From: Candidatus Pacearchaeota archaeon
GTDB taxonomy: Archaea > Nanobdellota > Nanobdellia > Pacearchaeales > GW2011-AR1
NCBI GenBank assembly: GCA_050303855.1
Contig: JBNLCO010000010.1
Location: 124,093 to 188,092 of the forward strand
Reading direction: 5' to 3'
DNA length: 64,000 nucleotides
The notes under the pieces are model-generated. The model saw nothing but the letters and a program-made list of their open reading frames with translations, was not told the origin of the DNA and did not search any database. Of the stretch, positions 20,650 through 48,980 are shown piece by piece. Position 1 is the first letter of the stretch. The number at the start of each line of letters is the position of its first letter. The translations under genes were made by a program, and so were the position numbers.

Positions 20650-21636
20650 ATGGAACCCTTAATTGCAATAACAATTTTTGCGAGTTTTTTTTGCTCATTT
20701 TTGATAACACCCCTTTGGATAAGGAAAGCCAAGTCTTTAGGGTTAACAGGTAAAGATATTCACAAGAAAAAATCTGAAGAGGTAGCAGAAGGGGGAGGAG
20801 TAGGTATCTTGTTTGGATTTACAATAGGCGTTTTACTTTATGTTGCAATAAATACGTTCTACTTTAACAATACTACCAAACTTACAGAAATATTTGCTTT
20901 ACTTTGTGTTATATTCATAGGGTCAATTGTAGGAATAGTTGATGATTTGACTGGATGGAAAAAGGGGTTGAGTAGGAAGATAAGAATTGCGATAGTTGTA
21001 TTTGCTGCAATTCCTTTAATGGTTATAAACGCGGGGGAATCTTCTATACTTGGAATAAATCTGGGCATATTCTTCCCATTGATAGTTATACCTCTTGGGA
21101 TTGTTGGGGCGACAACAGTTTACAACACTCTAGCTGGATACAATGGTCTTGAAACTTCGCAAGGTATGCTTTTACTTGGAGCTTTGGCTTATATTACATA
21201 CATTACGGGAAACCCTTGGTTAAGTGTTGTTGCATTGTGTATGGTTGCTGCTCTTCTTGCATTCTACTTTTTCAATATGAATCCTGCTAAAATCTTCCCA
21301 GGAGATATTACAACATACTCAATTGGGGCTCTATTTGGGGGGATTGCTATAATTGGAAATGTAGAAAAAATAGCTTTGTTCTTTTTCATACCCTATATAT
21401 TTGAGATCATATTAAAGATCAGAGGTAAATTGGAAAAGGAGAGTTTTGGTAAATTAAACCAAGATGGAGAAAGTCTTGATTTGAGGTATAATAAGATATA
21501 TGGTCTTGAACATCTTGCTATAAAAATATTAAAGAAAGTCAAGAAATCTGGAAAAGCATACGAAAACGAAGTGGTCTGGTTGATAAATGGTTTCCAATTA
21601 TTAATAATTATTCTTGGACTTTTGATATTCTTTTAA
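20650..21636 (+). CDS. aglH: UDP-HexNAc:dolichyl-phosphate HexNAc-1-phosphate transferase (GT4 MraY/WecA/AglH family)
   Basis: Polytopic membrane protein with ..IVGIVDDLTGW.. and ..NTLAGYNGLETSQG.. motifs of the GPT/MraY family. Confidence 0.75.
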   Translation: MEPLIAITIFASFFCSFLITPLWIRKAKSLGLTGKDIHKKKSEEVAEGGGVGILFGFTIGVLLYVAINTFYFNNTTKLTEIFALLCVIFIGSIVGIVDDLTGWKKGLSRKIRIAIVVFAAIPLMVINAGESSILGINLGIFFPLIVIPLGIVGATTVYNTLAGYNGLETSQGMLLLGALAYITYITGNPWLSVVALCMVAALLAFYFFNMNPAKIFPGDITTYSIGALFGGIAIIGNVEKIALFFFIPYIFEIILKIRGKLEKESFGKLNQDGESLDLRYNKIYGLEHLAIKILKKVKKSGKAYENEVVWLINGFQLLIIILGLLIFF

Positions 21637-21673: not shown

Positions 21674-24415
21674 ATGAGTGATAAAGAATTTTCCCTAAAT
21701 GTTAAGGAAATTAAGAGTAGTTACAAAAAATCTAAGCATTTCTTTATGGACAAAAGAGTACAATTAATCCTTACTGCAGTTATTTTTCTTATTATACTAA
21801 TATCTGCTTCTGTAATAAGAACCTCCAATTTGGACAATCTTAAAGACATGACTACCGGAAACTATTCTGCAGCAGATCCAGATGCTCTTTATTTCCTAAG
21901 GCTGTCCCACGTTGTTCTTGACCAAGGAAATTTAAATGGTGTTGATGCTTTAAGGGCTCCAGGTTTAAACATACCTTATCTTAAGGAGATTGCCCCTTAC
22001 ACAATTGTTGGAATTTACAAAATAGCTAGTGTGTTTAGCCAGGGGGCAGATCTTAACTTCATTGCGGTAATTTCGCCAGTAATATTCTTCATTTTGGGAC
22101 TAATTGTCTTTTTCTTTCTCTGTTATTATTTAACAAAATCAAAACTTGTTGCTTTACTTTCTTCCGCATTTTTAGCATTTTCACCTGCATATTTGTTTAG
22201 AACTATGTCTGGAGTTTTAGATCACGATTCTATAGGTATGTTGGGAATATTTGCGACACTACTCGTTTTTGCTGTAGGCTCTAAGAGATATAATAAATCA
22301 AAAAATAAAACTTTGTTGTGGGGAGGAATTTTGGGCCTATCAACAGCATTCGCATTGGGAGCATGGGCAGGAGGGGTTACATTCTTGTTTATGATTATAC
22401 CTCTTGCAATAATTGTTAATTACTTGTTTAACCTTGAAGGGAAAAAGGAGGAAAAAGAGAAACTAATTTTATTCAATATAACTTGGCTTGTTTCATATGT
22501 AATCTTCACTAGAATCATTGGATTTGCTATGTCTGATATACTTAATCGGTTGACAAATCCTTCAAGTATGTTGGTATTACTCGTCTTAGGTTTTATCGTG
22601 GTGGATTATCTTGTTGAAAGAAACATGAAGAAGTTGAAAATGATTAAAGAAGAAAATAGGGTTGCTTATTCTATTGTTGCAGCAATAATTTTGGGAATCT
22701 TATTATTGACTTTGACGGGAAACAATTTCTTCTCTATGGTCTCTCAAATATATTATAAAATCTTGAATCCTTTCGGTTACGGAGGAAGATTAGGTTCCAC
22801 CGTTTCAGAAAATGCCCAACCGTATCTAACCTCTTGGATAAGCCAAATAGGAAAGGGTCTGTTCGCTTTATTCTTTGCAGGAATGGTTCTTATGGGGTTT
22901 GATTTTTCTAAGAAGATCGGCTCTAAAAAACACCGTATTTATTTTGTTGCGTTTTGGATAATCCTTATATCAGGGATATTATTTAGTAGAATCTCTCAAG
23001 GCCATATACTAAACGGAGAAAATTTCATAAGTCAAATATTTTACATTGGAGGATTTTTATTATTCCTTATTTATTTCGTAAGACTATATTTCAAAAACAG
23101 ATTTGAGATAGACAAAGACATGATCTTGGTTTTCTCTTGGATGTTATTCATGTTAGTTCTTAGTAGGGCTGCTGCAAGAACAATATTTGTTGCAACACCC
23201 TTTGCATGTTTCGCTGCAAGCTATTTGCTTGTTGGGTTGGGAAAGAGATTGAGAAAACCTAGAGAAGATACGATGAAAATGATTCTTTGGTTAATTTTCA
23301 TAATAGGAGTTATACTTGCATTCGTTTCTTTATTTGGAAACCCTTTAACTCAGTCTCCAGGTACGTATCAAATACTTAAGAATCAGGCGTCAGGCATCGG
23401 TCAAGCAGCAAATTATCAATGGCAATACGCAATGGAGTGGGCAAGAGATAATACTGGAGAAGGAGATATTTTTGTACACTGGTGGGATTATGGGTATCTC
23501 GTCCAAACCCTAGCAAATAGAAAGACCGTTAGTGATGGAGGTCATGCTGCAGGAGATTCAGGAGACCATAATGTAGGGAGATACATCTTAACAACCCCTA
23601 ACCCTATTACTGCCTTGAGCTATATGAAGACTTGGAATGTTTCCTATTTGATAATTGATCCAACAGATCTTGGAAAATATGGAGCATATTCAAAGATTGG
23701 AAGTGATAAGGATTATGATAGATACTCAGCTCCATTTGCTTTAGCAAAAGAAGATAGTCAAACTGTTGAAACTTCTTCAGGAAACAAATTTGTTTACCAA
23801 GGAAGTAGTTTTGTTGACGGAGATATCAGCTATCAAGATATATTCATCCCTGGACCAAGCTTTACAGAATCAGGACAAGCAACTGCGAACGCATACATTA
23901 TAGGATTACTTTTAGAAACCTCCGATGTGTCGGAAGGAAGAACCGAGATAAAACAACCCCAAGCAGTATTCTACTATAAAGATAAACAATATCAAATTCC
24001 CATAAGATATGTGTATTATCAAGGAAGGATTATGGATTTCCAATCAGGTATAGAATCAACATTCGTTTTGATTCCTAAAGTAAATGAAGACTCTTTAGGG
24101 TCAATAGGCATTGATTATACAGGGGCAGGAATGTATTTATCAGAAAAAGTCTCCGATAGTCTATTTGCAAACCTTTATTTGATGGATGATCCATTCAATA
24201 AATACCCTACAATCACTCTTGCAAATTCTGAAGATGATTACGTTGTTAATGCTTTGAAACAACAGGGTGCAGAGGTTGGGGACTTTGTATATTATGGTGG
24301 TTTCAGAGGTCCTTTAAAAATTTGGAAAGTAGAATACCCTCAAGGAACTGAAACACATGATGAATTCTTGCAGTTGACTTCTAATTGGGAAGGAGAATTA
24401 GATAAATTATTTTGA
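21674..24415 (+). CDS. aglB: oligosaccharyltransferase AglB / STT3
   Basis: 913 aa, N-terminal multi-TM domain, WWDYGY catalytic motif (..VHWWDYGYLV..), large C-terminal soluble domain. Confidence 0.85.
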   Translation: MSDKEFSLNVKEIKSSYKKSKHFFMDKRVQLILTAVIFLIILISASVIRTSNLDNLKDMTTGNYSAADPDALYFLRLSHVVLDQGNLNGVDALRAPGLNIPYLKEIAPYTIVGIYKIASVFSQGADLNFIAVISPVIFFILGLIVFFFLCYYLTKSKLVALLSSAFLAFSPAYLFRTMSGVLDHDSIGMLGIFATLLVFAVGSKRYNKSKNKTLLWGGILGLSTAFALGAWAGGVTFLFMIIPLAIIVNYLFNLEGKKEEKEKLILFNITWLVSYVIFTRIIGFAMSDILNRLTNPSSMLVLLVLGFIVVDYLVERNMKKLKMIKEENRVAYSIVAAIILGILLLTLTGNNFFSMVSQIYYKILNPFGYGGRLGSTVSENAQPYLTSWISQIGKGLFALFFAGMVLMGFDFSKKIGSKKHRIYFVAFWIILISGILFSRISQGHILNGENFISQIFYIGGFLLFLIYFVRLYFKNRFEIDKDMILVFSWMLFMLVLSRAAARTIFVATPFACFAASYLLVGLGKRLRKPREDTMKMILWLIFIIGVILAFVSLFGNPLTQSPGTYQILKNQASGIGQAANYQWQYAMEWARDNTGEGDIFVHWWDYGYLVQTLANRKTVSDGGHAAGDSGDHNVGRYILTTPNPITALSYMKTWNVSYLIIDPTDLGKYGAYSKIGSDKDYDRYSAPFALAKEDSQTVETSSGNKFVYQGSSFVDGDISYQDIFIPGPSFTESGQATANAYIIGLLLETSDVSEGRTEIKQPQAVFYYKDKQYQIPIRYVYYQGRIMDFQSGIESTFVLIPKVNEDSLGSIGIDYTGAGMYLSEKVSDSLFANLYLMDDPFNKYPTITLANSEDDYVVNALKQQGAEVGDFVYYGGFRGPLKIWKVEYPQGTETHDEFLQLTSNWEGELDKLF

Positions 24416-28694: not shown

Positions 28695-29279
28695 ATGGAA
28701 GATCAAGAAAGTAAAGTTTATTTTTCGATTGGGGAGAGTATAAATGCAAAAAAATCTTTTTATAGTCGCCCAAAAGATCTTGTTGATATTTCAAACAAAA
28801 TTTATGAGTCTTTAAATAAAGGTCAAAAAATACTTGTTTTTGGGAATGGAGGTAGTGCGGCAGATGCACAACACATTGCAGGAGAGTTAGTTGGAAGGTT
28901 TAAGAAAGAACGTAAAGCTTTAGCAGCAATGGCTTTAACCACAGATACATCCGTAATAACATCATTATCTAATGATTATGATTATTCAAAGGTATTCGAG
29001 AGGCAAATTGAAGCATTTGCTAGGGAAGGAGATATTTTATGGGGAATTTCAACCTCAGGAAACTCGGAAAACGTTATTAAAGGTCTTGAAAAAGGAAGAG
29101 AAATAGGCACTTATAATTTTTCTATGACTGGTAAAGATGGAGGCATAGTAAAGAAATTAAGTGATTTTAATATAAATATTGATTCTAAAAACACTCCAAG
29201 AATTCAGGAAGCACATCAATTGGCGTACCATATTATTTGCGAATTGGTTGAAGATAAAATATATCATAATAATCTTTAA
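28695..29279 (+). CDS. gmhA: SIS-domain sedoheptulose-7-phosphate isomerase (GmhA-like)
   Basis: ..ILVFGNGGSAADAQHIAGELVGRF...GISTSGNSENVI.. GmhA signature. Confidence 0.7.
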   Translation: MEDQESKVYFSIGESINAKKSFYSRPKDLVDISNKIYESLNKGQKILVFGNGGSAADAQHIAGELVGRFKKERKALAAMALTTDTSVITSLSNDYDYSKVFERQIEAFAREGDILWGISTSGNSENVIKGLEKGREIGTYNFSMTGKDGGIVKKLSDFNINIDSKNTPRIQEAHQLAYHIICELVEDKIYHNNL

Positions 29280-29305: not shown

Positions 29306-30286
29306 ATGGTAAGAAATCTTATAACAGGCACTACAGGGATGGTGGGTTCTCATTTGGCAGAATTTCTTTTGGACAAAGGGGAAGAAGTTTATGGAACACG
29401 TCGTTGGCGAAGTAGGATGGATAATTGTAGAGGATTTGAGGACAAAATAAATTGGGTGAATATGGAATTAATTGACGCCCATTCTGTTAGAAATGCTATT
29501 GAAAGTGTAAGACCTGATGTGATCTATCATCTTGCTGCACAAAGCTATGTTGTTGATTCAAAAGATGAGCCTGTAGCCACAATGGAAATTAACGCCCATG
29601 GAACTGCTCATATTCTTGAAACCGTGAAGGAAATGAAGAAAAGAGATGGGTACAACCCTGTTATTCATGTTTGTAGTAGTAGTGAAGTTTATGGGCAGGT
29701 GAATCCGGACGAAGTTCCAATAAAAGAAACAAACCAATATCGACCGGCCTCTCCTTATGCGATAGGAAAGCTAGGAGCAGATATGCTTGCTAGGTGGTAT
29801 TTTGAAGAATATGATCTGAAGACGATACGTACAAGAATGTTTACTCATACAGGGCCAAGAAGAGGGGATGTTTTTGTAGTTTCAGCTTTTGCCAAACAAA
29901 TTGCAAAAATTGAGAAAGGATTACAAAAACCAAAATTAAAAGTAGGTAATCTAGAATCTGTTAGGACTTTTGCAGATGTTAGAGATACTGTGCATGCATA
30001 CTATCTCTTAACTAAGCATTGTAAGCCTGGAGAAGTCTATAACATAGGAGGAAATAGAACAATGAAGATTGGAGAGATGTTGGATATCCTTTTAAGCTAC
30101 TCTCCAATGAAAGATAAAATAGAAGTTGAAGTGGATCCGAATCTTCTAAGAAAAACTGATGTAACATATCAAATACCCGACACATCTAAGTTCAAAAAAG
30201 AAACCGGATGGGATAGCCCAATTCCTCTTGAGAAGACTTTAGAAGACACCCTAGACTATTGGAGAGGGGAATTTAAGAATGAGTAA
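29306..30286 (+). CDS. nucleotide-sugar 4,6-dehydratase (GDP-mannose 4,6-dehydratase-like extended SDR)
   Basis: ITGTTGMVGSHLAEFLL..., RPASPYAIGK, ..FTHTGPRRG.. resemble Gmd/4,6-dehydratase motifs. Confidence 0.65.
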   Translation: MVRNLITGTTGMVGSHLAEFLLDKGEEVYGTRRWRSRMDNCRGFEDKINWVNMELIDAHSVRNAIESVRPDVIYHLAAQSYVVDSKDEPVATMEINAHGTAHILETVKEMKKRDGYNPVIHVCSSSEVYGQVNPDEVPIKETNQYRPASPYAIGKLGADMLARWYFEEYDLKTIRTRMFTHTGPRRGDVFVVSAFAKQIAKIEKGLQKPKLKVGNLESVRTFADVRDTVHAYYLLTKHCKPGEVYNIGGNRTMKIGEMLDILLSYSPMKDKIEVEVDPNLLRKTDVTYQIPDTSKFKKETGWDSPIPLEKTLEDTLDYWRGEFKNE

Positions 30287-31349
30287 AGAAGTAAAAGTAA
30301 AATTAAATCATTTTTCTGGGGAATATGAAAATGATGAAGAGTATTATGAGAAATATTGGTCAATTAAAGTTTTGTTAGATAATTTTAATGTAAAAATTGT
30401 AGATAATGTGAAAGAGGCGGATGTTATATTTGAACAGTGTACAAGAGGAAGTAATTATAATTTTTTAAATGAAAAGAATAAAAAAATAGTGCTCTTTTCT
30501 TCAGAAGATCTATATAAAAAAAGAGATATTTTTAATTTAATAGAATCCTTTCTTTATAAGGTAGGATTGGGGGATAAAAAGTGGAAAATTATAGATAAAC
30601 TAGATAGTATTATTCCTTCAAGTATCTCAAGCATTCCATTGAAATATTTTCTACCAAAACATTTGAAGTTTGTGAGAAAAATTTCAGAAGGAAAAATAAA
30701 AAATGCATACGCAATTGTTCAAAATGATATAAAAGGGGAAAACATCTTGATAATTCCCTGTTTCTTGCATGTTTTTTATTATAATTTGAAAGATTTCACA
30801 AAAAAGAAAAAACAGGAATCAAGTAAAAGGAAGAAATTTTGTGCGTTTATTGTATCTAGCAATTCCTCTAGGGAAAGGGTTAAATTTTTTAAGAAATTGT
30901 CCAAATACAAGAAAATTGATTCTTATGGAAGGGTCATGAATAATATGGGAGATAGTATTTTTAATGGCCACTGGAGTGGAACCCACCCGGAGATATATAA
31001 AGACTATAAATTCGTGATTTGTTTTGAGAATAGTTTTACAAAAGAGTATATTTGTGAGAAATTGCCTAGGACTATGCTTTCTGGAGCAATACCTATATTC
31101 AGAGGTGCTCCAAACATTGGAGAATATTTCAATAAAAAATCTTTCATTAATTATGATAATTATGGAAGTTATGAAAATATGATAAAGAAAATTATTGAGT
31201 TGGATAGTGATGATAAAAGATATGAATCATTCCTAAGAGAACCTTGGTTCAAAGATAACAAGATTCCAAAGATATTTAGAGATAAAGAGAAAGAATTAAT
31301 TCAATTTTATACCAAGATTTTTGGACCTCCAAAGAGAAAATTAAAATGA
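30279..31349 (+). CDS. GT10-family alpha-1,3-fucosyltransferase-like glycosyltransferase
   Basis: ..YKFVICFENSFTKEYICEKL.. matches the GT10 FucT motif (YKFxLxFENS...YxTEK). Confidence 0.5.
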   Translation: MSKEVKVKLNHFSGEYENDEEYYEKYWSIKVLLDNFNVKIVDNVKEADVIFEQCTRGSNYNFLNEKNKKIVLFSSEDLYKKRDIFNLIESFLYKVGLGDKKWKIIDKLDSIIPSSISSIPLKYFLPKHLKFVRKISEGKIKNAYAIVQNDIKGENILIIPCFLHVFYYNLKDFTKKKKQESSKRKKFCAFIVSSNSSRERVKFFKKLSKYKKIDSYGRVMNNMGDSIFNGHWSGTHPEIYKDYKFVICFENSFTKEYICEKLPRTMLSGAIPIFRGAPNIGEYFNKKSFINYDNYGSYENMIKKIIELDSDDKRYESFLREPWFKDNKIPKIFRDKEKELIQFYTKIFGPPKRKLK

Positions 31350-32002
31350 ACAATATTTTTTATGGAATACTTTCTGTAGGGTTTGACATCGATCAAACAA
31401 TGTACGCAAAAAATAGTGAAATAGACTTAATTATTCAAGATGAAATTGCGAGGAAGATTCTTGAAATAAAACCTTCTTTCAATAATCTTGAATCAGCAAA
31501 AGAATTTTCTGAAAGAAGATATTCTGAATTAGGGAGCCGAACAAGTGTGTTAGAAGAGGTTGGCTATAAAAATGCTCAAGAAATCTTGTACGGATGCATT
31601 TCAAGTGATAAAACAATAAACCCTCTCCAGAAAGACGAAAGGCTTCAGGAAATGATTTCAAGATTGGGACATAAATATGATCTTTTTTTAATAACTAATA
31701 ATTCGGAGGATATTGCGACTAAAAAATTAGATCGATTAGGTGTTGACAAGTCTTTATTTAACCTAAAATTTTATGGAGACACATTACCTGGAATAAAAAA
31801 ATCTGATGGTTCTTTGTTCAAATATTTCCTAAGTAGGTCCAAACATTCCCCTGAAAACCACATATATGTCGGAGATAGCCTTAATGCAGACATAATCCCT
31901 TCTAAAAAGCTAGGTTTCAAAACAATTTGTGTAGGAAATCACTTTCTTGAAGCGAATTATTCTGTTAAAGAAATTTATGATATAGAAAATCTTCTTCTAT
32001 AA
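31346..32002 (+). CDS. HAD-superfamily hydrolase (candidate heptose-bisphosphate phosphatase)
   Basis: DxDxT-like ..GFDIDQTM.. N-terminus. Context next to GmhA/HddA. Confidence 0.4.
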   Translation: MNNIFYGILSVGFDIDQTMYAKNSEIDLIIQDEIARKILEIKPSFNNLESAKEFSERRYSELGSRTSVLEEVGYKNAQEILYGCISSDKTINPLQKDERLQEMISRLGHKYDLFLITNNSEDIATKKLDRLGVDKSLFNLKFYGDTLPGIKKSDGSLFKYFLSRSKHSPENHIYVGDSLNADIIPSKKLGFKTICVGNHFLEANYSVKEIYDIENLLL

Positions 32003-32061: not shown

Positions 32062-33849
32062 ATGAAGTTAGCAGATTATGTTATTGATTATTTTGGAGAT
32101 AAGGGAGTGAAGGATATATTTGAGGTCTATGGTGCTGCGAATGGTGATTTGATTGATGCTTTTACGAGAACAGATAAAACAAGATATGTTGCTATAATGC
32201 ACGAACAAGCTGCAGGGTTTGCTACAGAATGTTATTCTAAGATCAGCGGTAAGCCAGGTGTTGCGATAGCCACAAGTGGCCCTGGAGGCCAGAATTTTGT
32301 GACTCCAATTGCAAATTGTTATTATGATTCTGTTCCGGCAATTTTTATAACAGGTCAGGTAAACTCCAGATTTTTAAGGCCTGATGAAAGTATAAGACAG
32401 AGAGGATTCCAAGAAACCCCTATTGCAGAAATTGTTGCTCCCATAACAAAATATTCTAAAATGATTACAGACCCAAGCACAATAAAACATGAACTTGAAA
32501 AAGCATGGTATATTTCCCAAGAAGGAAGACCAGGCCCAATTCTTCTTGATCTTCCGATAGATATTCAAAAAGCGGAAGTAGATCCGTCAAAACTATTTGG
32601 GTTTAATTCAGAAACTTATAAAACCAATTTTAATATGGAACAGGTTAATAACCAGATAGACCACTATCTTGAAGACTTGTCCCGTGCTGAAAGACCAGTT
32701 ATTCTTGTTGGAGGAGGAGTAAGACCTTCAGGAGGAATAGAAAAACTTCTGAGTTTGGGAGAGAAATTAAAAATTCCGATGTTCCCCACATGGAATTCAT
32801 TAGATATTGTTACTTCTGATTACAATTACTATGGAGGAAGGGTTGGAACTTATGGCGGAAAAGGAAGAAACTTTGGTTTGCAGAACTCCGATTTAGTTTT
32901 GGCTTTGGGAAGCAGAATTTCTGGAAGACTTTATGGAAGCCAGACAAAGGCTTTCTTAAGAGATGCAAAGAAATATGTAGTAGATATTGATAAAGCTAAC
33001 TTACAACAAATATTCCAAGAAGTTCCCTTTGACGAGAACATTTTTTGTGACGCGAAAACTTTTATAGAAAGTTTAGATAAAAAGTTGGAAGGTGTTCCTA
33101 AGAAAGATTTCTCTTCATGGACAAGTAAAGTTATGGGTTGGAGAAACAAGTATGACCCTGTAAAGAAAGAATTTTTTGAGGCTAATGAGAATGCAAACCC
33201 CTATGCTTTTTTTAGAACACTTTCTCAAGAAATGAAATCTGGAGATATCCTTGTGGGAGACTGTGGGGGAAATATTGTTGTTGCTAGTCACGCTTTTGAA
33301 ACAAAGAAAGGGCAAAGATTCATTACAAATAATGGAAACTCCCCTATGGGATTTTCATTTTCAGGAGCCATGGGGGCCTACCTTGCTGCAAATGAAGGCC
33401 AAAATGTAGTTTGCACGATTGGAGATGGAGGTTTCAATATGAATATCCAAGAACTACAAACTTTAAAGAATTATGATCTAAATTTCAAGACATTCATAAT
33501 TAACAATGGAATTTATGGTATCACTAAAGCATTCCAAGAAAAGAAGTTTGAGGGTAGGGCTGAAGCATGTGGTCCAAAAGGCTATGTTCCTCCTAATTTT
33601 ATGGCCATATGTGATGCTTACGGAATTAAAACCGAATCTATAAAAGGAAATGATATTGATAGCATGAGAGAGAAAATTGGAGATGTTTTGAATTCAAAAG
33701 GTCCTGTTGTGTGTGATGTAAGTTGTCCAGACTGGCATACTTACGAACCAACAGTTTTTGGATCAGTCCCAATCGAAGAAATGCACCCTCAGTTGCCTGA
33801 AGAAGAATTCAGAGAAAATATGATTATAAAACCTTGGAAAAAGAAATAA
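32062..33849 (+). CDS. thiamine-diphosphate-dependent enzyme (acetolactate-synthase/YerE-like)
   Basis: 595 aa. Pyr domain (..AIMHEQAAGFATECYSKI..), central domain, PP domain with ..GDGGFNMNIQEL.. ThDP-binding motif. Confidence 0.75.
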   Translation: MKLADYVIDYFGDKGVKDIFEVYGAANGDLIDAFTRTDKTRYVAIMHEQAAGFATECYSKISGKPGVAIATSGPGGQNFVTPIANCYYDSVPAIFITGQVNSRFLRPDESIRQRGFQETPIAEIVAPITKYSKMITDPSTIKHELEKAWYISQEGRPGPILLDLPIDIQKAEVDPSKLFGFNSETYKTNFNMEQVNNQIDHYLEDLSRAERPVILVGGGVRPSGGIEKLLSLGEKLKIPMFPTWNSLDIVTSDYNYYGGRVGTYGGKGRNFGLQNSDLVLALGSRISGRLYGSQTKAFLRDAKKYVVDIDKANLQQIFQEVPFDENIFCDAKTFIESLDKKLEGVPKKDFSSWTSKVMGWRNKYDPVKKEFFEANENANPYAFFRTLSQEMKSGDILVGDCGGNIVVASHAFETKKGQRFITNNGNSPMGFSFSGAMGAYLAANEGQNVVCTIGDGGFNMNIQELQTLKNYDLNFKTFIINNGIYGITKAFQEKKFEGRAEACGPKGYVPPNFMAICDAYGIKTESIKGNDIDSMREKIGDVLNSKGPVVCDVSCPDWHTYEPTVFGSVPIEEMHPQLPEEEFRENMIIKPWKKK

Positions 33850-34479
33850 TTAAATTAATATTTTCTCTAATTCGTTTATAAATTTCTTTGAACCTTTACG
33901 AACTATTTTTTTATCTAAATAATTTTCTTCGGTATTGAGAACTAAATAGGAAACAAAATCAACCCCTGGATATTTGAAGTCAAGGTCTATATCTTCCCAG
34001 TACTTTGCTGTTTTATCCCAAACAGATACGTCTGAAGGATCTGAGATAAGTCCATCTGAAGGGGGCCTAGATTTCATTCTTTTCTTTGCTTCAGCCTCAG
34101 AACAAACACATTCTACAACAATTACATTCTTTCCTGCACCCGAAGCTACACCATAAATCTGTTGTCTTCTAAAGGTATGTCTATTTACGCTATCGATTAT
34201 TACCCCTTTCCCTTTGGTTAAATAATCCATTGCAGTCCGATCAATAAGCCTTAAAGTTTCTTCTTGTTTCTTTGGCATTTTTTTTAGTCCTAAATTACGT
34301 CTTACTTCGTTTTGAGAAATATATTCATAATTTTGGAGGCCTTTAGCCAATTTAGCAGAAGCACTAGTTTTACCTGTACCGGGGAAACCAGTCATCAAAA
34401 TGAGGTAATTTTCCATATAACCCCAATTTTTATTTAATTTAAATAGATTTATGTCTTTGTTTAGAATGTTTTCTTCCAT
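33850..34479 (-). CDS. P-loop NTPase/kinase (AAA_33-like)
   Basis: Walker A GFPGTGKTS. ~200 aa. Confidence 0.45.
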   Translation of the reverse strand: MEENILNKDINLFKLNKNWGYMENYLILMTGFPGTGKTSASAKLAKGLQNYEYISQNEVRRNLGLKKMPKKQEETLRLIDRTAMDYLTKGKGVIIDSVNRHTFRRQQIYGVASGAGKNVIVVECVCSEAEAKKRMKSRPPSDGLISDPSDVSVWDKTAKYWEDIDLDFKYPGVDFVSYLVLNTEENYLDKKIVRKGSKKFINELEKILI

Positions 34480-35128
34480 CTAAAATGAGTTCAGATTTTT
34501 TTTCTTTGTATGCAGCAAATATTTCTTCTGAAACATATTTTGGATCCATGGAGTTTTCTCTACCAGGTCGAGTTCTTATTCTAGTTGGATAAACTCCCAT
34601 CACATGTATTCCGTTTTCAATTGCTTCCAAATTTAAGCTATCTGTGAAACCCTTAAGCCCGTATTTGCATGCTGAAGCCACGCTACGAAACTTTTTGCTT
34701 TCAAGGCCCATTATTGAGTTAATATTTATGATTGTTCCAGAGTTCTTCTTTAAAAAAAGAGGATAAATTTCCTTAGATAATTTTATTGGAGCATATAGAT
34801 TTGTTTCGAGTAATTCGTCTACTGTTTCTCTGGATATTTTATCTAAGGGTAAACCAGGACAAAAAACCCCTGCATTATTTACTAAAATTGACAAGTCTTT
34901 TTTCTCTGCAATGTTTGCCAAGTCCTTAATAGTCTTCTCGGATCTTAAATCTCCATAAACCACTTCCACCTTTGACCCGTATTTTAGTATTTCTCTCTGA
35001 GAATCATTTAAGCTAGTTTTATCCCTTCCATGGATTATTAAATTGTAACCTTCTCTTGCAAAAGTTAAAGCTAATTCCTTTCCAAGACCTTTGCTAGAAC
35101 CAGTTATCAGAACAGATTCTTTTTTCAT
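34439..35128 (-). CDS. short-chain dehydrogenase/reductase (classical SDR)
   Basis: ITGSSKGLGKELA cofactor motif. ..NNAG.. and YxxxK regions. Confidence 0.7.
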   Translation of the reverse strand: MKKESVLITGSSKGLGKELALTFAREGYNLIIHGRDKTSLNDSQREILKYGSKVEVVYGDLRSEKTIKDLANIAEKKDLSILVNNAGVFCPGLPLDKISRETVDELLETNLYAPIKLSKEIYPLFLKKNSGTIININSIMGLESKKFRSVASACKYGLKGFTDSLNLEAIENGIHVMGVYPTRIRTRPGRENSMDPKYVSEEIFAAYKEKKSELILDGRKHSKQRHKSI

Positions 35129-35132
35129 TTTT

Positions 35133-36044
35133 TTAATTCGAAGAATTTTTTGAATACCAATCCAAAGTTTTTACAATACCTTCTTCAAGCGGGACTTTTT
35201 GAGACCACCCAATTTCATTTGCTTTGGTACAATCTAAGGATAGATTCATCTTAATCGTAGGTTTTGTTGTATCATGCTCAATTTTCAAATTCTTTCCGGA
35301 GGCATTAATGATCTTCTTTGTTAAGTCATTAACTGGTACTTGCTCTCCAGATCCAACATTATAAACCCCATCAAGTTCTTTTTCAAGAGCAATTTCCACA
35401 AAATCTACAAAATCAGAAACATACAAGAAATCTCTTTTTTCTTTTCCATCTCCCCAAATTACAATGCTTTCTCCGTCTGGAGTATTAGTAACTTCATTAA
35501 TTTTTGCTGCAAAAACATGAGAAGTAGCCAAATCAAAATTATCGTTAGGTCCGTAAATATTGGAGTGTCTCATCACAGTATGTTTTGTTCTTCCCAATCC
35601 AGAATAAAAATTGCACATATTTTCAAGATAAATCTTTGTACCTCCTCCACCTGAATATTTTACATTTGGAGAAGTGGGATCTGTTTCCTTATGGGGTTTA
35701 TCGCTTGAAGGGTAAACATTTGTACAGCTTGGAAATATAAACTGTTTAACATTATTTTCAAAAGCACTTCTTAACAAAAGAGAATTCATTACTGCATTAT
35801 CGGTTACATGAATATAAGGCCTCTCTATTATATCTTTAACCCCTGTACTCGTAGCAGCCATTTGAATTATAACGTCTTGACCTTTTACTACCCTTTCAAC
35901 GTCTTCTTTTCTAGTTAAATCGGCATATACATCTGATTTATTTCTAAATCCAACTCCTGTAACATCATATTTATCTTTTAGTCTTTCATATATGTTACTT
36001 CCTAAGAATCCTGTTGCTCCAGTTATTAACACTTTCTTTTTCAT
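35133..36044 (-). CDS. NAD-dependent sugar-nucleotide epimerase/reductase (extended SDR)
   Basis: ITGATGFLGSNIYERL motif. Confidence 0.7.
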   Translation of the reverse strand: MKKKVLITGATGFLGSNIYERLKDKYDVTGVGFRNKSDVYADLTRKEDVERVVKGQDVIIQMAATSTGVKDIIERPYIHVTDNAVMNSLLLRSAFENNVKQFIFPSCTNVYPSSDKPHKETDPTSPNVKYSGGGGTKIYLENMCNFYSGLGRTKHTVMRHSNIYGPNDNFDLATSHVFAAKINEVTNTPDGESIVIWGDGKEKRDFLYVSDFVDFVEIALEKELDGVYNVGSGEQVPVNDLTKKIINASGKNLKIEHDTTKPTIKMNLSLDCTKANEIGWSQKVPLEEGIVKTLDWYSKNSSN

Positions 36045-36081: not shown

Positions 36082-37062
36082 TCATTCAAAGATATTATAT
36101 CTTTTATTTACAATATCTTTATTTTCTTTATACCAATCCATTGTTCTCCGAACTCCCTCTTCTAGAGATACTTTTGGATTCCATCCAAGAGACTTTGCTC
36201 TTGATACATCCATTAACCTTATTTTATCTCCTCTTGGCATAGAAGGATCCCATTTTATGGAGGGTTTTCCTTCAATGTTATTTACAATTATATTTGCTAA
36301 TTCTTTTATGCTCTTTCTTTCCCCTGATCCAAGATTTAAAGGGTAGTCTGGGCCTGGAGCCTTTTCTAAAGCCACAAGCATTCCTTCAGCAACATCCTCT
36401 GAATAAATGAAATCTCTTATTGGACTTCCATCTCCTCCTACTTTAAGGGGATTTTCTCCATCAACAGCCCTTTTTATCAATGAAGGTATTACCATTGCGT
36501 TATTCACATCAAAGTTATCAAAAGGCCCGTAGACATTTGCAGGTCTTACTATTGCTGTTTTATCCCACCCATGTTGAATTTTATATGCCCTTGCTTGTAA
36601 TTCACCAGATCTCTTTGCATAACCCCCAAACAAATCATTCTCGGAAGGAAGCGTTTTGAAAACGTCATCCTCTCTCAAAATTTCGGCAGGTTGATAAACA
36701 CCTATTGTGCTTGTAAACAAGAATCTTTCTGTCCCCTCTTTTCTAGCAGCTTCCATCAAATTTGTATTAAATTGGAGAACAGGAACAAGAAAATTAGCTG
36801 GTTTTTCCAAGGTCATTTTTGGAGAACCTTTTATTCCAAGAAGATTAAAAACATAATCCTGTCCTTCGCAAGCAATTTCACAGTTGTGATAATTGGTTAG
36901 ATCAAGTTTCAAATATTCTGAATTGGGATTTGCCCTTGAAGGATCATCCATTGAAACAACTCTTACATTTGCACCTTCCTCAAGAAGTCTATTTACTAGA
37001 GGCTTTCCAATAAGTCCGGTTCCCCCTGCGACAAGAACGTTTTTTCCCTCATAAAAACCCAT
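36082..37062 (-). CDS. NAD-dependent sugar-nucleotide epimerase/reductase (extended SDR, GDP-fucose-synthase-like)
   Basis: VAGGTGLIGKPLVNRL motif. Confidence 0.7.
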   Translation of the reverse strand: MGFYEGKNVLVAGGTGLIGKPLVNRLLEEGANVRVVSMDDPSRANPNSEYLKLDLTNYHNCEIACEGQDYVFNLLGIKGSPKMTLEKPANFLVPVLQFNTNLMEAARKEGTERFLFTSTIGVYQPAEILREDDVFKTLPSENDLFGGYAKRSGELQARAYKIQHGWDKTAIVRPANVYGPFDNFDVNNAMVIPSLIKRAVDGENPLKVGGDGSPIRDFIYSEDVAEGMLVALEKAPGPDYPLNLGSGERKSIKELANIIVNNIEGKPSIKWDPSMPRGDKIRLMDVSRAKSLGWNPKVSLEEGVRRTMDWYKENKDIVNKRYNIFE

Positions 37063-37173: not shown

Positions 37174-38304
37174 ATGGGAATTTCTTTTGGAGATTTGAGA
37201 GTCAGTAAGGAGTCTAGAAAACATCTTGAAGACTGTCTCAATAATAATATGATTTCTGGAGGAGATAAAGTGAAAATCTTGGAGGATTCTTGGGGAAAAC
37301 TTTTTGGATATAAATATAATGTTGCTATGGGTTCTGGAACAGATGCAGATATGGCTGCTGCAATGACTCTTTATGATACAGTGGAAGCCAAACCAGGTGA
37401 TGAGGTTATCGTTCCTGCTCTTGCATTTGCAGCCGTAGGGAATAGTGTAAGAGCTGCAGGTTTTACACCTAAATTTGTTGACATAGAAAGAGAAACATTA
37501 AACATCAACCCTGATTTGATTGAAGAAAAAATAACTCCAAAAACAAAGGCCATAATGGCAGTCCATACAATGGGAAAACCAAATGAGATGGACAAAATAA
37601 CTCAAATTGCAAACAAGTATAACCTAAGGGTTTTAGAAGATTGTTGTGAATCTCATGGGGGAGAATATAAGGGGAAGTTTTTAGGTAGCTTTGGGGATGC
37701 ATCTGCATTTAGTTTTTATGTTGCACACATTGTTTCTTGTGGTGATGGAGGCATGCTTTCAACAAACTCTGAAGAGATAAGCGATTTAGCCGATTCAGTA
37801 AAACACCACGGAAGAAAACCTAGAACAATTTATTTTGATCATCCAAGATTTGGTATGAATTTTAGGATGAATGCCTTGACAGCTTCCATAGGCATCCCCG
37901 AAATACAAAATTTTTGGAAGATTTTTGATAAAAGAAAAGGCAATTTGAATTATTTACTGGATTCAACAAAAGACCTTCAGGATTTTGCTTATTTTGTTAA
38001 GGAGGAACCTCATGAGGTTGTCTCTCCTCACGCTTTTAGTATAACTCTTAAAAATCCGGATCACGATTTCAAAGGATTGTATGCATTCTTAGAAAAAAAT
38101 GATATAGAATGTAAAAGAAACTTCGGGAGTATGCCAACACAGCATAAAGCTTTTGAATATCTTGGATACAAGAAAGGTGAATTTCCTGAAGCAGAGTATG
38201 TTGGAGATAATGGGTTGCATTTTGGAATCCATCAATTCTTAGAAAAGAGTGATTTAGATTATGCTTCAGAAAAAATCCACGAATATTTTAAAAAATTTAA
38301 ATAA
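37174..38304 (+). CDS. DegT/DnrJ/EryC1/StrS-family PLP/PMP enzyme, ColD/E1-type sugar 3-dehydratase candidate
   Basis: Family fold. Active-site motif reads SFYVAHIVSCGDGG with His where aminotransferases of this family have Lys. Confidence 0.65.
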   Translation: MGISFGDLRVSKESRKHLEDCLNNNMISGGDKVKILEDSWGKLFGYKYNVAMGSGTDADMAAAMTLYDTVEAKPGDEVIVPALAFAAVGNSVRAAGFTPKFVDIERETLNINPDLIEEKITPKTKAIMAVHTMGKPNEMDKITQIANKYNLRVLEDCCESHGGEYKGKFLGSFGDASAFSFYVAHIVSCGDGGMLSTNSEEISDLADSVKHHGRKPRTIYFDHPRFGMNFRMNALTASIGIPEIQNFWKIFDKRKGNLNYLLDSTKDLQDFAYFVKEEPHEVVSPHAFSITLKNPDHDFKGLYAFLEKNDIECKRNFGSMPTQHKAFEYLGYKKGEFPEAEYVGDNGLHFGIHQFLEKSDLDYASEKIHEYFKKFK

Positions 38305-38310
38305 AAAAAT

Positions 38311-39168
38311 TTATTTTTTAGAATCTAAAGATTGAATATAGTTCTTTATTTCATTCAAATTGTCTTCGGATATTTTGTAGAAAAGGTTTTCTTCGGGAAA
38401 ACTTCCAGATCTTATTTCGTTTACATAACTAGACAAACCTTTCTTCATTTCACTTCCAACATCTGAGAATTGTTTTACAAACTTAGCTTTTATTCCGCCT
38501 AAACCAACCACATCGTTAACTATTGCCAAGATACCGTCTACGTTTTTTCCAGCCCCGATTCCGTAAACAGGAATGTTCAAAGATTTTGCGATATATCCTG
38601 CAGGTTCATTTGGAACAGCTTCCAAAAGTATTGCGCAAGCTCCCGCGTCCTGTAATGCTTTTGAATCATTATAGAGGGTTTTGAATCCGTCTAAACTTTT
38701 TGATTGTACAACCCCCATTAGATCTGTTGATTGGGGTGTATATCCTATATGCCCTATTGTCGCTATCCCAGCATCTTTCAAGGCCTTTACTCTTTGAGTT
38801 ACTCTTTCTCCCCCTTCAAGCTTAACTGCATCAACACCTGCTTCTTTCATAAATCTTAATGCATTGAAAGTTGCATTTTCATTAGAAATTTGGTAAGAAC
38901 CTAAAGGCATATCCCCCACAATAAAAGTATTTGGAGCTCCTCTACGGACTGCTTTTGTTAACATGATCATCTCATCCATTGTTACTGGAATAGTATTTTC
39001 ATAACCTAGAAGATTATTTCCTGCAGAATCTCCAACAAGGATCATATCCACTCCAGACTCTTCAGCTATTCTTGCTGTTTGAAAATCATAAGAAGTTATC
39101 CATGTGACTTTTTCCCCTTTTTTTTTCATCTTTACAAGATCTCCGAGGGTTTTTCTCTTTCCTTCCAT
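38311..39168 (-). CDS. 3-methyl-2-oxobutanoate hydroxymethyltransferase (PanB) family protein
   Basis: ..ITSYDFQTARIAEESGVDMILVGDSAGNNLLGYENTIPVTMDEMI..VGDMPLGSY.. matches PanB family signatures. Confidence 0.65.
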   Translation of the reverse strand: MEGKRKTLGDLVKMKKKGEKVTWITSYDFQTARIAEESGVDMILVGDSAGNNLLGYENTIPVTMDEMIMLTKAVRRGAPNTFIVGDMPLGSYQISNENATFNALRFMKEAGVDAVKLEGGERVTQRVKALKDAGIATIGHIGYTPQSTDLMGVVQSKSLDGFKTLYNDSKALQDAGACAILLEAVPNEPAGYIAKSLNIPVYGIGAGKNVDGILAIVNDVVGLGGIKAKFVKQFSDVGSEMKKGLSSYVNEIRSGSFPEENLFYKISEDNLNEIKNYIQSLDSKK

Positions 39169-39394: not shown

Positions 39395-41440
39395 ATGAAA
39401 GCATTGATACTTGCAGGAGGATTTGGTACCCGACTTCAAGGGGTTGTTAAAGATGTTCCAAAACCAATGGCCTCTATTGCGGGAAAACCTTTTTTGGAGC
39501 ATCAGATACGTTATTTGAAAAGACAAGGAATTAACGAATTTATCTTGGGAGTTCATTATAAATCAGATGTCATAAAATCTTATTTTGGCAACGGTATGAG
39601 GCAAGATGTAAGCATAACTTATTCTGAAGAGGATTCTCCTCTTGGAACAGGGGGAGCAATAAAACTCGCGCAGAAATTCATTGACGGGCCATTTTTAGTT
39701 TTGAATGGGGACTCGTATACTGATTTGGATCTGGGCAAATTTATGAGATTCCATGAAAAAAATAATTCTGTTGCAAGCATGGTCTTGCAAAAAATGGAAA
39801 AGGATAATTCCCACTATGGAAATGTTGAATTAGAAGGGGATACAATAAAGAGATATTCCGAAAAAAAATCAGTTGGCAAAGGACTGTCCAATTCAGGAAT
39901 CTATTTATTTGATCAAGAGATATTTGACTACATTCCTGGATCTAAAAAGATTTCTTTGGAAGAAAGAGTGTTTCCTGAACTGGTAAAGAAGGGTGCTATT
40001 TCTGGATTTGTCAACAAAGGTTATTTTGTCGATATCGGAAGACCCGAGACCTATCTTCAATTTAAAAAAGATTTTATTGAGAAATTGCAATCTTCAAAAG
40101 ACATTATTTTAAGAGATGCTATAAAAAAGATGTATGAAAATGGTTCAGACATATTGTTTATGGTTAATGAAGAGAAAGAATTTCAAGGTTTGCTAACAGA
40201 TGGAATTATTAAAAGATACCTAATAAGAGGGGGAGAATTTGAAGCAGGAGTTGATGAAGCCATGATAGAAAAACCAGAAAGGATTGCTACAATAAAAGAC
40301 AGTGAGGATAAAATAAGAGGTTTCTTAAAAGAAGGGGTCAAGAATCTTCCAATACTGGACGAACAAGGAAAAATATACGATATTCGATTTAGAACCGAAG
40401 AGGTAAAAGGAGAAGAATATCCAACCATTAGAGGTAAAACTCCTTTGAGAATAAGTTTTGCAGGAGGCGGTACAGATATGCCCTATTTTTTTGAGAAATA
40501 CGGAGGGGCTGTAATAAGCACAACTATTGATAAGTATTGCAACATTACTGCAAAAAAAAGAGGGGATTCCAAAATCGTAATTAATTCGGATATTTTAGAG
40601 GAGGAAGTGATTTTGGATGCCGGGAATTTAAAATATGATAGAAGTAAATTTGATCTAGTAAAATCAGTATATAATCTTGTAAACCCGGGGTGTGGTGTTG
40701 ATCTCCATTTGAATAATGACGTACCTCCAGGAAGAGGTCTTGGTTCATCTGCATCATTTGCAGTTCTTTTAACTAAAATTTTGGGCAAGCTAAAAGGGAG
40801 TAATTTGAGTGATGAGGAAGTTGCAGAATTTGCTTATAGAGCAGAAGTTGAAGAATTGGGAATAAGAGGAGGCAAGCAAGATCAATACGCTGCAGTATTT
40901 GGAGGATTTAATTGGATGGAATTTGAAAATGGAAATAGAAAAATAATGACATCCCTTAGAATAAAAGAAGATACTTTGAATGAATTGAAAGATCATTTAA
41001 CTTTATGCTACACTGGCAAAGAACATGAATCAATCCATCAACAGAAGTTATTGGAAGACAAATTTAAAAAAGAGAACCAGAGTGCAATTGAAAGGCTAAA
41101 AAGAATGAAACTTAATGCACGAGAAATAAAGAATTATCTTCTATCTCCGACCCCCGATTTTCAAAGGATAGGCGAGATAACCCATAAAATCTGGACAGAT
41201 AAAAAGAAGACTTCTTCGAAAGTAACCAGCAAAGTTATTGAAAACCTTTATGAAGTGGGAATGACTAATGGATCATATGGAGGTAAGCTTTTAGGTTCTG
41301 GTGGGGGAGGCTACTTGTTATTTTTCCATCCTCCAGAAAAAAGGAACAAATTAGAGAGAGGATTATCTCAGGAAGGTGGAGAAATCATGAACTTCAATTT
41401 TACTGAAGATGGTGCCAAGATATGGGTTCCGAACAAATAA
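39395..41440 (+). CDS. Tri-domain protein: sugar-1-phosphate nucleotidyltransferase (HddC-like) + CBS pair + GHMP kinase (HddA-like heptose-7-phosphate kinase)
   Basis: N-terminal MKALILAGGFGTRL. Middle ..GLLTDGIIKRYL...LPILDEQGKIYDI.. CBS-like. C-terminal GHMP motif PPGRGLGSSASFAV. Confidence 0.7.
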   Translation: MKALILAGGFGTRLQGVVKDVPKPMASIAGKPFLEHQIRYLKRQGINEFILGVHYKSDVIKSYFGNGMRQDVSITYSEEDSPLGTGGAIKLAQKFIDGPFLVLNGDSYTDLDLGKFMRFHEKNNSVASMVLQKMEKDNSHYGNVELEGDTIKRYSEKKSVGKGLSNSGIYLFDQEIFDYIPGSKKISLEERVFPELVKKGAISGFVNKGYFVDIGRPETYLQFKKDFIEKLQSSKDIILRDAIKKMYENGSDILFMVNEEKEFQGLLTDGIIKRYLIRGGEFEAGVDEAMIEKPERIATIKDSEDKIRGFLKEGVKNLPILDEQGKIYDIRFRTEEVKGEEYPTIRGKTPLRISFAGGGTDMPYFFEKYGGAVISTTIDKYCNITAKKRGDSKIVINSDILEEEVILDAGNLKYDRSKFDLVKSVYNLVNPGCGVDLHLNNDVPPGRGLGSSASFAVLLTKILGKLKGSNLSDEEVAEFAYRAEVEELGIRGGKQDQYAAVFGGFNWMEFENGNRKIMTSLRIKEDTLNELKDHLTLCYTGKEHESIHQQKLLEDKFKKENQSAIERLKRMKLNAREIKNYLLSPTPDFQRIGEITHKIWTDKKKTSSKVTSKVIENLYEVGMTNGSYGGKLLGSGGGGYLLFFHPPEKRNKLERGLSQEGGEIMNFNFTEDGAKIWVPNK

Positions 41441-47585: not shown

Positions 47586-48980
47586 CTACCCTCTATTTCT
47601 TCTCCGAGAATAAATTATACCCACAAAATAAATTAGTCTGCTTGCTATCGTAGCGAAACAAGCTCCAAGTACTGCTTGAAACATTCCAGGGGGACCAAAG
47701 AAGCCATGATTTAAACCATAAGTTATTCCGAAATAGTTAAACCCAATATTAAAAATTGTACTTACGATTAGAAGCTTTGCAATTACACTTGTTTTCTTTT
47801 GTGAAATCATATAGTTATCGTATATTCCTGAAATCGGAAGTAAGAAAATTATAGCCGCTAGAAGTTTTAGGATAGGAACGGCTGTCAGATATTCTGAACC
47901 ATAAGCAATTTTAACAACATAATAAGCGATAAAATAAGTTATTATTGCAGATAAAAATGCGATTAGGAAAGTTATATTTCTAGATTTCTTAAATAATCTT
48001 TCTAGAGATCTACCTTCAAGTTTAGCAAATAAAGGGAATAGTGCTGCAGCAGTAAAACCGATTATTGCTGTGGCAGAACCCACCAAACTAAATGCTGCCC
48101 CATAATATGCTATAAATTCTTCTGAAACAAAATGTCCAAGCATAAGAGTATCAATATATCCAAAAAACACTCCCGAAAGGGCTGTGACCGTTAAAGGGAG
48201 AAGGAATTTCTTTACTTCTTTTACTTCTTGTTTATCTAATTTTCCAGCTTTCCCTTTTACGAAAGAGACTTTCTTCCTTGCCATGAGGGCAAATATGAAG
48301 AGACTAATTGCATAACAAATCGTTAAAGAAAGTAAAACAAGTGCTACAACGGTTCCATTTGATAAACTTGTCTTTAGCAAGAACAAAATAGTCAAAGGAA
48401 CAATTGTCAATCTTAGGGTCTGAAATATTATTTCCTTTACAAGAGGCATCTTGAAATTATTTGTTGCTTTAAAAGACTGCTCAAAGAAATTTAGGAATCC
48501 TACAATTGGTATATAAAGGCCTCCTACCAGCAAAGCATAGAATATTGGTTTGTTATAATATCCATTTGCAACAAAATAAGCACTTGCTAGGAGAACTAAG
48601 GAGCACACTGTGGTTAAAACAAATTTCCATCTTAATAAGGTTCTGAAATATTTTTTAGCTTTTTCTAGATCTTTTCTTCCAAGAACTTTAGAAATAAACG
48701 TGACAACGCCTGTTGATATCCCAAAATCAGAAAATGCAGAAAACAAAACAATTGTGGATAGTGCAAGTGAATAAAGGCCCATTCTCTCTGGCATAAGTAG
48801 TCTTGCAACGATTATTGTGAAAAAAAGTGATCCAAACTTAATTGTCAAATTTTCTGCTAATTGGTAACTAGAATTCTTTATAGCTTGTCCAGTGTTTCCT
48901 GAAAAATCTCTCTTCTTAAAACGCCTGAAAACATTTCTCGCATCTCCTTCTTCCTTTTCTAAAAAATCATCCATGAACAA
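47586..48980 (-). CDS. MOP-superfamily polysaccharide/oligosaccharide flippase (Wzx-like)
   Basis: 464 aa, ~12-14 TM, typical PST-family layout. Adjacent to GTs. Confidence 0.65.
   Translation of the reverse strand: MFMDDFLEKEEGDARNVFRRFKKRDFSGNTGQAIKNSSYQLAENLTIKFGSLFFTIIVARLLMPERMGLYSLALSTIVLFSAFSDFGISTGVVTFISKVLGRKDLEKAKKYFRTLLRWKFVLTTVCSLVLLASAYFVANGYYNKPIFYALLVGGLYIPIVGFLNFFEQSFKATNNFKMPLVKEIIFQTLRLTIVPLTILFLLKTSLSNGTVVALVLLSLTICYAISLFIFALMARKKVSFVKGKAGKLDKQEVKEVKKFLLPLTVTALSGVFFGYIDTLMLGHFVSEEFIAYYGAAFSLVGSATAIIGFTAAALFPLFAKLEGRSLERLFKKSRNITFLIAFLSAIITYFIAYYVVKIAYGSEYLTAVPILKLLAAIIFLLPISGIYDNYMISQKKTSVIAKLLIVSTIFNIGFNYFGITYGLNHGFFGPPGMFQAVLGACFATIASRLIYFVGIIYSRRRNRG

What the first reader, a model, noticed from the sequence alone, without database searches (positions are those of the whole stretch)
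37174..38304. DegT-family enzyme with His replacing the PLP-binding Lys (ColD/E1 signature)
The motif SFYVAHIVSCGDGG has His where sugar aminotransferases of this family carry the Schiff-base Lys (SF..K..TGEGG). In established cases (GDP-4-keto-6-deoxymannose 3-dehydratase ColD; CDP-6-deoxy-4-keto-glucose 3-dehydrase E1) this substitution marks 3-deoxygenation rather than transamination. That implies a 3,6-dideoxy sugar product.
Basis: partly seen in the sequence, partly recalled or inferred. Interest (0 to 1): 0.6.

Follow-up and report, generated by a model that had tools for sequence, protein, structure and literature searches.

The report
Archaeal His-type sugar 3-dehydratase, heptose pathway
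This archaeal gene encodes a sugar-modifying enzyme whose usual cofactor-anchoring lysine is replaced by histidine; that change and the neighbouring genes indicate it removes the 3-hydroxyl from a GDP-linked seven-carbon sugar, a known type of reaction in a lineage and organism where it has not been studied.

Summary
ORF 37174..38304 (+, 376 aa) is a DegT/DnrJ/EryC1/StrS protein. His185 (CAC, 37726-37728) lies in the column of E1 His220, ColD His188 and the Schiff-base Lys of aminotransferases. The His is fixed in 119 of 120 close homologs, and no compensating Lys exists.

- The protein is not a ColD or E1 ortholog. It is about 31% identical to each and sits in a separate, uncharacterised His-type superclade (bootstrap 94%).
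- It lacks the Cys-rich [2Fe-2S] insert of E1, and no E3-like reductase is nearby. A ColD-like, glutamate-recycled mechanism is therefore most likely.
- The neighbours point to a GDP-heptose substrate: GmhA, an HddC-HddA fusion, a 4,6-dehydratase closest to the C. jejuni GDP-heptose 4,6-dehydratase, and two GDP-fucose-synthase-like reductases. This synteny recurs in DPANN archaea and CPR bacteria.
- The predicted product is GDP-3,6-dideoxy-4-keto-heptose, inside an AglB N-glycosylation island.

In a subset of genomes, including this one, the gene is also linked to a YerE-like ThDP enzyme and PanB. That hints at a branched 3,6-dideoxyheptose.

Verdict: new member of a known kind, moderate interest. 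No activity was measured.

The parts
37174..38304 (+). His-type DegT-family gene (376 aa), predicted PMP/PLP-dependent NDP-4-keto-6-deoxy-sugar C3-dehydratase
   Evidence: ORF and translation. Pfam PF01041 at 275.8 bits. Best PDB relatives are E1 at 4.2e-47 and ColD at 2e-42. AF2 model pLDDT 92.4 with DegT fold, TM about 0.88.
37711..37752 (+). Active-site motif SFYVAHIVSCGDGG (residues 180-193). Ser180 is equivalent to ColD Ser183 and Ala184 to ColD Ser187 / E1 Ala219.
   Evidence: Alignments. Column statistics: position 184 is A or S in 99 of 104 His-type sequences, against N or T in 39 of 51 Lys-type sequences.
37726..37728 (+). Codon CAC for His185, at the position of the Schiff-base Lys (E1 His220, ColD His188)
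   Evidence: Conserved in 119 of 120 homologs.
37639..37650 (+). D156-C157-C158-E159. Asp156 is equivalent to ColD Asp159 (the equivalence is measured; its role as pyridine-N1 ligand is from my recollection of the ColD structure papers). Glu159 is equivalent to ColD Glu162. Cys158 is a His-type hallmark.
   Evidence: D is present in 155 of 155 sequences; C158 in 90 of 104 His-type against A in 36 of 51 Lys-type; E159 in 99 of 104 His-type. Residue correspondence comes from the alignment, with a 2-residue tag offset shown.
28695..29279 (+). GmhA-like sedoheptulose-7-phosphate isomerase (first step to heptose nucleotides)
   Evidence: NCBIfam TIGR00441 gmhA at 201.3 bits (cut-off 209.45, just below) and Pfam SIS_2.
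29306..30286 (+). GDP-heptose-type 4,6-dehydratase, predicted to make the 4-keto-6-deoxy substrate
   Evidence: Best PDB hit is 7us5, GDP-D-glycero-D-manno-heptose 4,6-dehydratase, at 2e-88 and 300 bits. GDP-mannose 4,6-dehydratases reach at most 145 bits. Homologs are present in 7 related loci.
39395..41440 (+). HddC-HddA fusion (heptose-1-phosphate guanylyltransferase plus heptose-7-phosphate kinase), the predicted source of GDP-D-glycero-D-manno-heptose
   Evidence: The top NCBIfam hits are HddA (245.8 bits) and HddC (197.3 bits), both below the equivalog cut-offs. A homolog lies within 10 kb of the His-type gene in 9 of 13 related loci and in L015 and L019.
36082..37062 (-). GDP-L-fucose-synthase-like SDR (GFS2), divergently transcribed from the His-type gene. 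Candidate ColC-like C5-epimerase/C4-reductase of the 3,6-dideoxy-4-keto product.
   Evidence: The top PDB hits are GDP-L-fucose synthases at 1.1e-35. NCBIfam GDPFucSynFcl is the top hit. Conserved at 60-68% identity in 6 loci.
35133..36044 (-). Second GDP-L-fucose-synthase-like SDR (GFS1)
   Evidence: Conserved in 7 loci.
34439..35128 (-). Short-chain dehydrogenase; possible side-chain (YerF-like) or sugar reductase
   Evidence: Pfam adh_short. Conserved in L008, L011, L012 and L015. The proposed role is inferred only.
32062..33849 (+). YerE-like ThDP enzyme; candidate C4 acyl-branching enzyme acting on the 4-keto-3,6-dideoxy product
   Evidence: Best PDB hit is 8rph (JanthE, described as a YerE-like enzyme in PMC12188165) at 311 bits, against at most 242 bits for chains deposited simply as acetolactate synthase. 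Linked to His-type DegT genes in L015-L020.
38311..39168 (-). PanB (ketopantoate hydroxymethyltransferase), convergent with and 6 bp from the His-type gene. Possibly supplies a hydroxylated 2-keto-acid donor (speculative).
   Evidence: Pfam Pantoate_transf at 307 bits. Recurs in the cluster in L015 and immediately next to the TPP gene in L017 and L018.
30279..31349 (+). GT10 (fucosyltransferase-family) glycosyltransferase; candidate transferase for a GDP-linked deoxy sugar
   Evidence: Pfam Glyco_transf_10 at 88.9 bits. Same position in L015. The donor assignment is inferred.
31346..32002 (+). HAD phosphatase (possible GmhB substitute, or part of the TPP/kinase module)
   Evidence: Pfam HAD_2. 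There is no GmhB equivalog match. Co-occurs with the AAA_33 kinase in L011, L015 and L017.
33850..34479 (-). AAA_33-type kinase, a recurrent member of the extended cluster
   Evidence: Pfam. Present in L011, L015, L017, L018 and L019.
21674..24415 (+). AglB/STT3 oligosaccharyltransferase; marks the island as an archaeal N-glycosylation locus
   Evidence: Pfam STT3 and STT3-PglB core. A Glycos_transf_4 gene lies at 20650-21636 and a flippase-type Polysacc_synt gene at 47586-48980.

Best explanation
The gene most likely encodes a pyridoxamine/pyridoxal-phosphate-dependent nucleotide-sugar C3-dehydratase of the histidine type. It is proposed to work like ColD. PMP forms a ketimine with the C4 keto group of an NDP-4-keto-6-deoxy sugar. 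His185 abstracts the C4' proton of the cofactor and the C3 hydroxyl leaves. The resulting enamine is hydrolysed to the 3,6-dideoxy-4-keto sugar plus ammonia. PLP is then returned to PMP by an amino acid donor, probably L-glutamate, with no iron-sulfur cluster and no partner reductase.

The substrate is most likely GDP-6-deoxy-4-keto-D-lyxo-heptose. It would be made locally by GmhA, the HddC-HddA fusion and the heptose-type 4,6-dehydratase. The product, GDP-3,6-dideoxy-4-keto-heptose, would be finished by the adjacent GDP-fucose-synthase-like epimerase/reductases and used for an N-linked glycan.

Shown here: the residue identity and its alignment, its conservation, the absence of the Fe-S insert, the family identities of the neighbours, and the synteny. 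Inferred: the catalytic activity, the nucleotide and sugar identity, the amino donor, and the fate of the product.
For: - His185 aligns with E1 His220 and ColD His188 and with the Lys of aminotransferases. It is fixed in 119 of 120 homologs.
- The query carries the full set of residues that co-vary with His in 104 His-type sequences as against 51 Lys-type sequences: C158, E159, A184, H212, R214.
- Cofactor-site residues are conserved: D156, S180, G55-T56, F85, N229.
- The literature states that the Lys-to-His change is the defining difference of the sugar 3-dehydratases E1, ColD and SpnQ, and that the His acts as the acid/base (PMC8987622).
- There is no Cys-rich insert. E1-clade members have one, ColD has a Cys-free loop, and the query clade has neither. 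No E3-like reductase was found among the island ORFs of 100 aa or more between 20.6 and 49 kb.
- The neighbouring 4,6-dehydratase is closest to the C. jejuni GDP-heptose 4,6-dehydratase, 300 bits against at most 145 bits for Gmd. GmhA and HddC-HddA are present, and two GDP-fucose-synthase-like SDRs are adjacent.
- Synteny with HddC-HddA, the 4,6-dehydratase and the GFS-like genes recurs in DPANN and CPR genomes.
- The exact reaction sequence, GDP-heptose to 4,6-dehydratase to PLP/Glu C3-dehydratase to reductase, is experimentally established in C. jejuni (PMC10440746).
- The gene is linked to a YerE-like enzyme, and YerE's known natural acceptor is a 4-keto-3,6-dideoxy sugar.
Against: - No member of the query's superclade has been characterised. 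The query is only about 31% identical to ColD and to E1, about the same as to the aminotransferase QdtB and less than to 7b0m over its aligned part.
- The query's superclade is separated from the E1/ColD clade with 94% and 97% bootstrap support.
- Overall fold similarity does not discriminate dehydratases from aminotransferases.
- All NCBIfam equivalog scores are far below cut-off, for example RfbH at 200.6 against 423.
- HddA, HddC and GmhA matches are the top hits but fall below the curated cut-offs, so the heptose and GDP assignments are probable, not certain.
- No canonical GmhB was identified.
- SpnQ shows that a His-type enzyme can transaminate under some conditions.
Confidence: 0.65

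Rival explanations
1. It is a His-type enzyme of the same fold but with a different PMP/PLP chemistry from C3-dehydration. Examples would be a lysine-free transaminase, or an isomerase or eliminase acting on another position. This would reflect the fact that its superclade is uncharacterised.
For: The query superclade is distinct from E1/ColD. It is as distant from them as from some aminotransferases. No curated family covers it. SpnQ can transaminate without its reductase (PMC8987622). A second aminotransferase-like gene accompanies the cluster in L019 and L020.
Against: Every characterised DegT-family member with His at this position is a C3-dehydratase. The His-type co-varying residues are shared with E1 and ColD. 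The window has a 4,6-dehydratase and 4-keto reductases but no other enzyme to account for a 3-deoxy step. The YerE-like partner fits a 4-keto-3,6-dideoxy acceptor.
Confidence: 0.2
2. It is an E1/SpnQ-like 3-dehydrase. In that model the glucoseen intermediate is reduced by electrons delivered through an iron-sulfur cluster from a separate reductase or ferredoxin.
For: E1 is the best-scoring solved relative by sequence at 4.2e-47. Ala184-His185 matches E1's Ala219-His220, not ColD's Ser-His. Cys158 aligns with E1 residue Cys193; from memory, Cys193 is one of the E1 cluster ligands.
Against: The Cys-rich insert seen in E1-clade proteins (CxCxxC...C after the 'GR' motif) is entirely absent. Cys158 is also conserved in ColD and in 90 of 104 His-type proteins, so it is not diagnostic. 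No consistent 3-4 Cys set is conserved: C137 is absent in the query, and positions 189 and 313 are variable. No E3-like, ferredoxin-like or flavodoxin-reductase-like gene was found in the island.
Confidence: 0.07
3. It is an ordinary sugar aminotransferase or an inactive relic, and the His is functionally irrelevant or compensated elsewhere.
For: Public sources annotate homologs as 'aminotransferase' or 'dTDP-4-amino-4,6-dideoxygalactose transaminase'.
Against: Those names are automatic family labels. There is no compensating Lys. His is fixed across hundreds of diverged sequences, together with conserved cofactor-binding residues. That pattern shows purifying selection on a working active site. 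The ORF is intact and lies in conserved synteny.
Confidence: 0.05

Closest known systems
ColD / WbdK, GDP-4-keto-6-deoxy-D-mannose 3-dehydratase (E. coli O55; PDB 2gms), and its C. jejuni HS:5/HS:11 orthologs that act on GDP-6-deoxy-4-keto-D-lyxo-heptose (PMC10440746)
   Same: Same fold and family. His sits at the Schiff-base position. No Fe-S insert. The nucleotide context is predicted to be GDP. The pathway logic is the same: 4,6-dehydratase, then C3-dehydratase, then GFS-like epimerase/reductase. The C. jejuni enzymes use the same predicted heptose substrate.
   Different: Only 31.5% identical, whereas the Campylobacter enzymes are 62-67% identical to ColD. The query lies in a different superclade. 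It has Ala, not Ser, before the His. It lacks ColD's roughly 20-residue loop after the 'HG' motif. The host is an archaeon and the setting is N-glycosylation.
E1 (AscC/DdhC/RfbH), CDP-6-deoxy-L-threo-D-glycero-4-hexulose 3-dehydrase (PDB 3bcx)
   Same: Best sequence match among solved structures. The Ala-His dipeptide and the D-C-C-[DE] motif are shared.
   Different: The query has no Cys-rich [2Fe-2S] insert and no E3 partner. It is 61 residues shorter. The RfbH equivalog model scores 200.6 against a cut-off of 423. The context is GDP-heptose, not CDP-glucose. A true archaeal E1 ortholog looks different; see L013.
Lys-type DegT sugar aminotransferases (e.g. 7b0m, QdtB, GDP-perosamine synthase, PseC)
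   Same: Same fold, TM 0.87-0.89. Similar length and loop architecture. 39% identity to 7b0m over residues 16-255.
   Different: They carry the Schiff-base Lys with N or T before it, and mostly A at position 158. The query has His, Ala and Cys at these positions.
Yersiniose-type pathways (E1/E3, then YerE, then YerF)
   Same: A 3-dehydratase gene co-localises with a YerE-like ThDP enzyme and SDR reductases. L013 shows the canonical CDP version in an archaeon.
   Different: Here the dehydratase belongs to the Fe-S-free query clade. The sugar is predicted to be a GDP-heptose. PanB, an AAA_33 kinase, a HAD protein and, in other genomes, B12-radical-SAM genes accompany it. No product is known.

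Membership tests
DegT/DnrJ/EryC1/StrS family (Pfam PF01041) | Full-length match to the family profile above the gathering score | tested here: met
   275.8 bits against a cut-off of 19.8, covering profile positions 4-359 of 360. The AF2 model superposes on family structures with TM 0.85-0.89.
His-type sugar 3-dehydratases (E1, ColD, SpnQ) | His replaces the Schiff-base Lys | tested here: met
   His185 aligns with E1 His220 and ColD His188. Definition from PMC8987622.
His-type sugar 3-dehydratases (E1, ColD, SpnQ) | Cofactor-binding residues retained (equivalents of ColD Asp159, Glu162, Ser183, Asn248) | tested here: met
   D156, E159, S180 and N229 are invariant in the clade and conserved family-wide. 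The correspondence comes from the alignment. The roles of these residues are taken from my recollection of the ColD structure papers.
His-type sugar 3-dehydratases (E1, ColD, SpnQ) | Phylogenetic membership in the clade that contains the characterised enzymes | tested here: not met
   In the NJ tree, E1 and ColD form a clade with 97% bootstrap that excludes the query. The query superclade has 94% support. Only NJ was possible; ML was not available.
His-type sugar 3-dehydratases (E1, ColD, SpnQ) | Pathway context: an NDP-sugar 4,6-dehydratase upstream and a 4-keto reductase/epimerase downstream | tested here: met
   Heptose-type 4,6-dehydratase, two GFS-like SDRs, and conserved synteny.
His-type sugar 3-dehydratases (E1, ColD, SpnQ) | Catalysis of C3 deoxygenation | not testable with these tools
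   Needs an enzyme assay of the kind used in PMC10440746.
E1/SpnQ subtype | Four-Cys [2Fe-2S] motif around the cofactor, and a reductase partner | tested here: not met
   The Cys-rich insert is present in E1-clade representatives and in the L013 E1 ortholog but absent here. No reductase gene is in the island.
RfbH equivalog (NCBIfam NF011936) | Score at or above the curated cut-off of 423 bits | tested here: not met
   200.6 bits, and only the N-terminal half is matched. The E1 sister P0229 passes with 442 bits.
ColD orthologs | High identity to ColD (characterised heptose- and mannose-specific members are 62-67% identical to each other) | tested here: not met
   31.5% identity. Reference value from PMC10440746.
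Lys-type sugar aminotransferases | Schiff-base Lys in the loop after the Ser-x-aromatic strand | tested here: not met
   His is at that position, and K135 and K314 are K/R-interchangeable.

The most novel reading that the evidence does not exclude
The His-type dehydratase is the entry step of an undescribed pathway, shared by DPANN archaea and CPR bacteria, that builds an acyl-branched 3,6-dideoxyheptose. This would be a seven-carbon, GDP-linked analogue of yersiniose, erwiniose or caryophyllose. In this model the YerE-like ThDP enzyme adds a side chain to C4 of the 4-keto-3,6-dideoxy product. PanB may supply a hydroxymethylated 2-keto-acid donor. SDR, kinase, HAD and B12-radical-SAM enzymes then tailor the sugar, which ends up on N-glycans through AglB.
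Probability: 0.25. Interest if true: 0.65.

Novelty: new member of a known kind. Interest (0 to 1): 0.4.

Why it matters
If correct, the finding has four consequences.

1. It extends sugar C3-deoxygenation by His-type PMP enzymes to a large, deep-branching lineage with no characterised member. That lineage is currently auto-annotated as "aminotransferase". It includes 48 of the 150 clusters at 50% identity that lie nearest the query.
2. It predicts 3,6-dideoxyheptoses, so far known from Campylobacter capsules, in the N-glycans of DPANN archaea and on CPR bacteria. These organisms depend on cell-cell contact with hosts, and their surface chemistry is almost unknown.
3. It offers a minimal enzyme, with aminotransferase-length loops and no Fe-S insert, for studying how a Lys-to-His switch converts transamination into dehydration.
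4. The recurrent link to a YerE-like carboligase and PanB gives a concrete, testable route to new branched sugars and to biocatalysts that form tertiary alcohols.

The core inference itself is ordinary for a specialist, because the Lys-to-His signature is textbook for this family.

Tried and rejected
1. A quick regular expression (SF[YF]..) suggested that 46 of 120 homologs lacked the motif. A proper alignment showed these read "SYY.AH", and His is present in 119 of 120. The regex result is discarded.
2. Compensating lysine: K135 and K314 are invariant in the close clade but swap with Arg in the wider group. Rejected.
3. E1-type or alternative Fe-S site: there is no insert and no conserved Cys set. 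Rejected.
4. Foldseek against the PDB was expected to separate dehydratase from aminotransferase. It did not; all scored TM 0.85-0.89.
5. The TPP enzyme as a housekeeping acetolactate synthase: its best solved relatives are 8rph (JanthE, documented as YerE-like) and 5ahk, which I recall as a YerE homolog but could not verify. It also sits in sugar clusters next to His-type DegT genes. This reading is considered unlikely.
6. The YerE-like gene as a universal partner: it is absent within 10 kb in 13 of 13 GTDB-species loci. It belongs to an "extended" variant of the cluster only.
7. An exact-sequence look-up of the window's protein found nothing on record, so the source record was not identified.
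8. The E1 structure paper (PMC2782820) is not held. The exact E1 cluster-ligand numbers are from memory. The review and the E1-clade sequences were used instead.
9. The first mafft run timed out and was repeated with faster settings.
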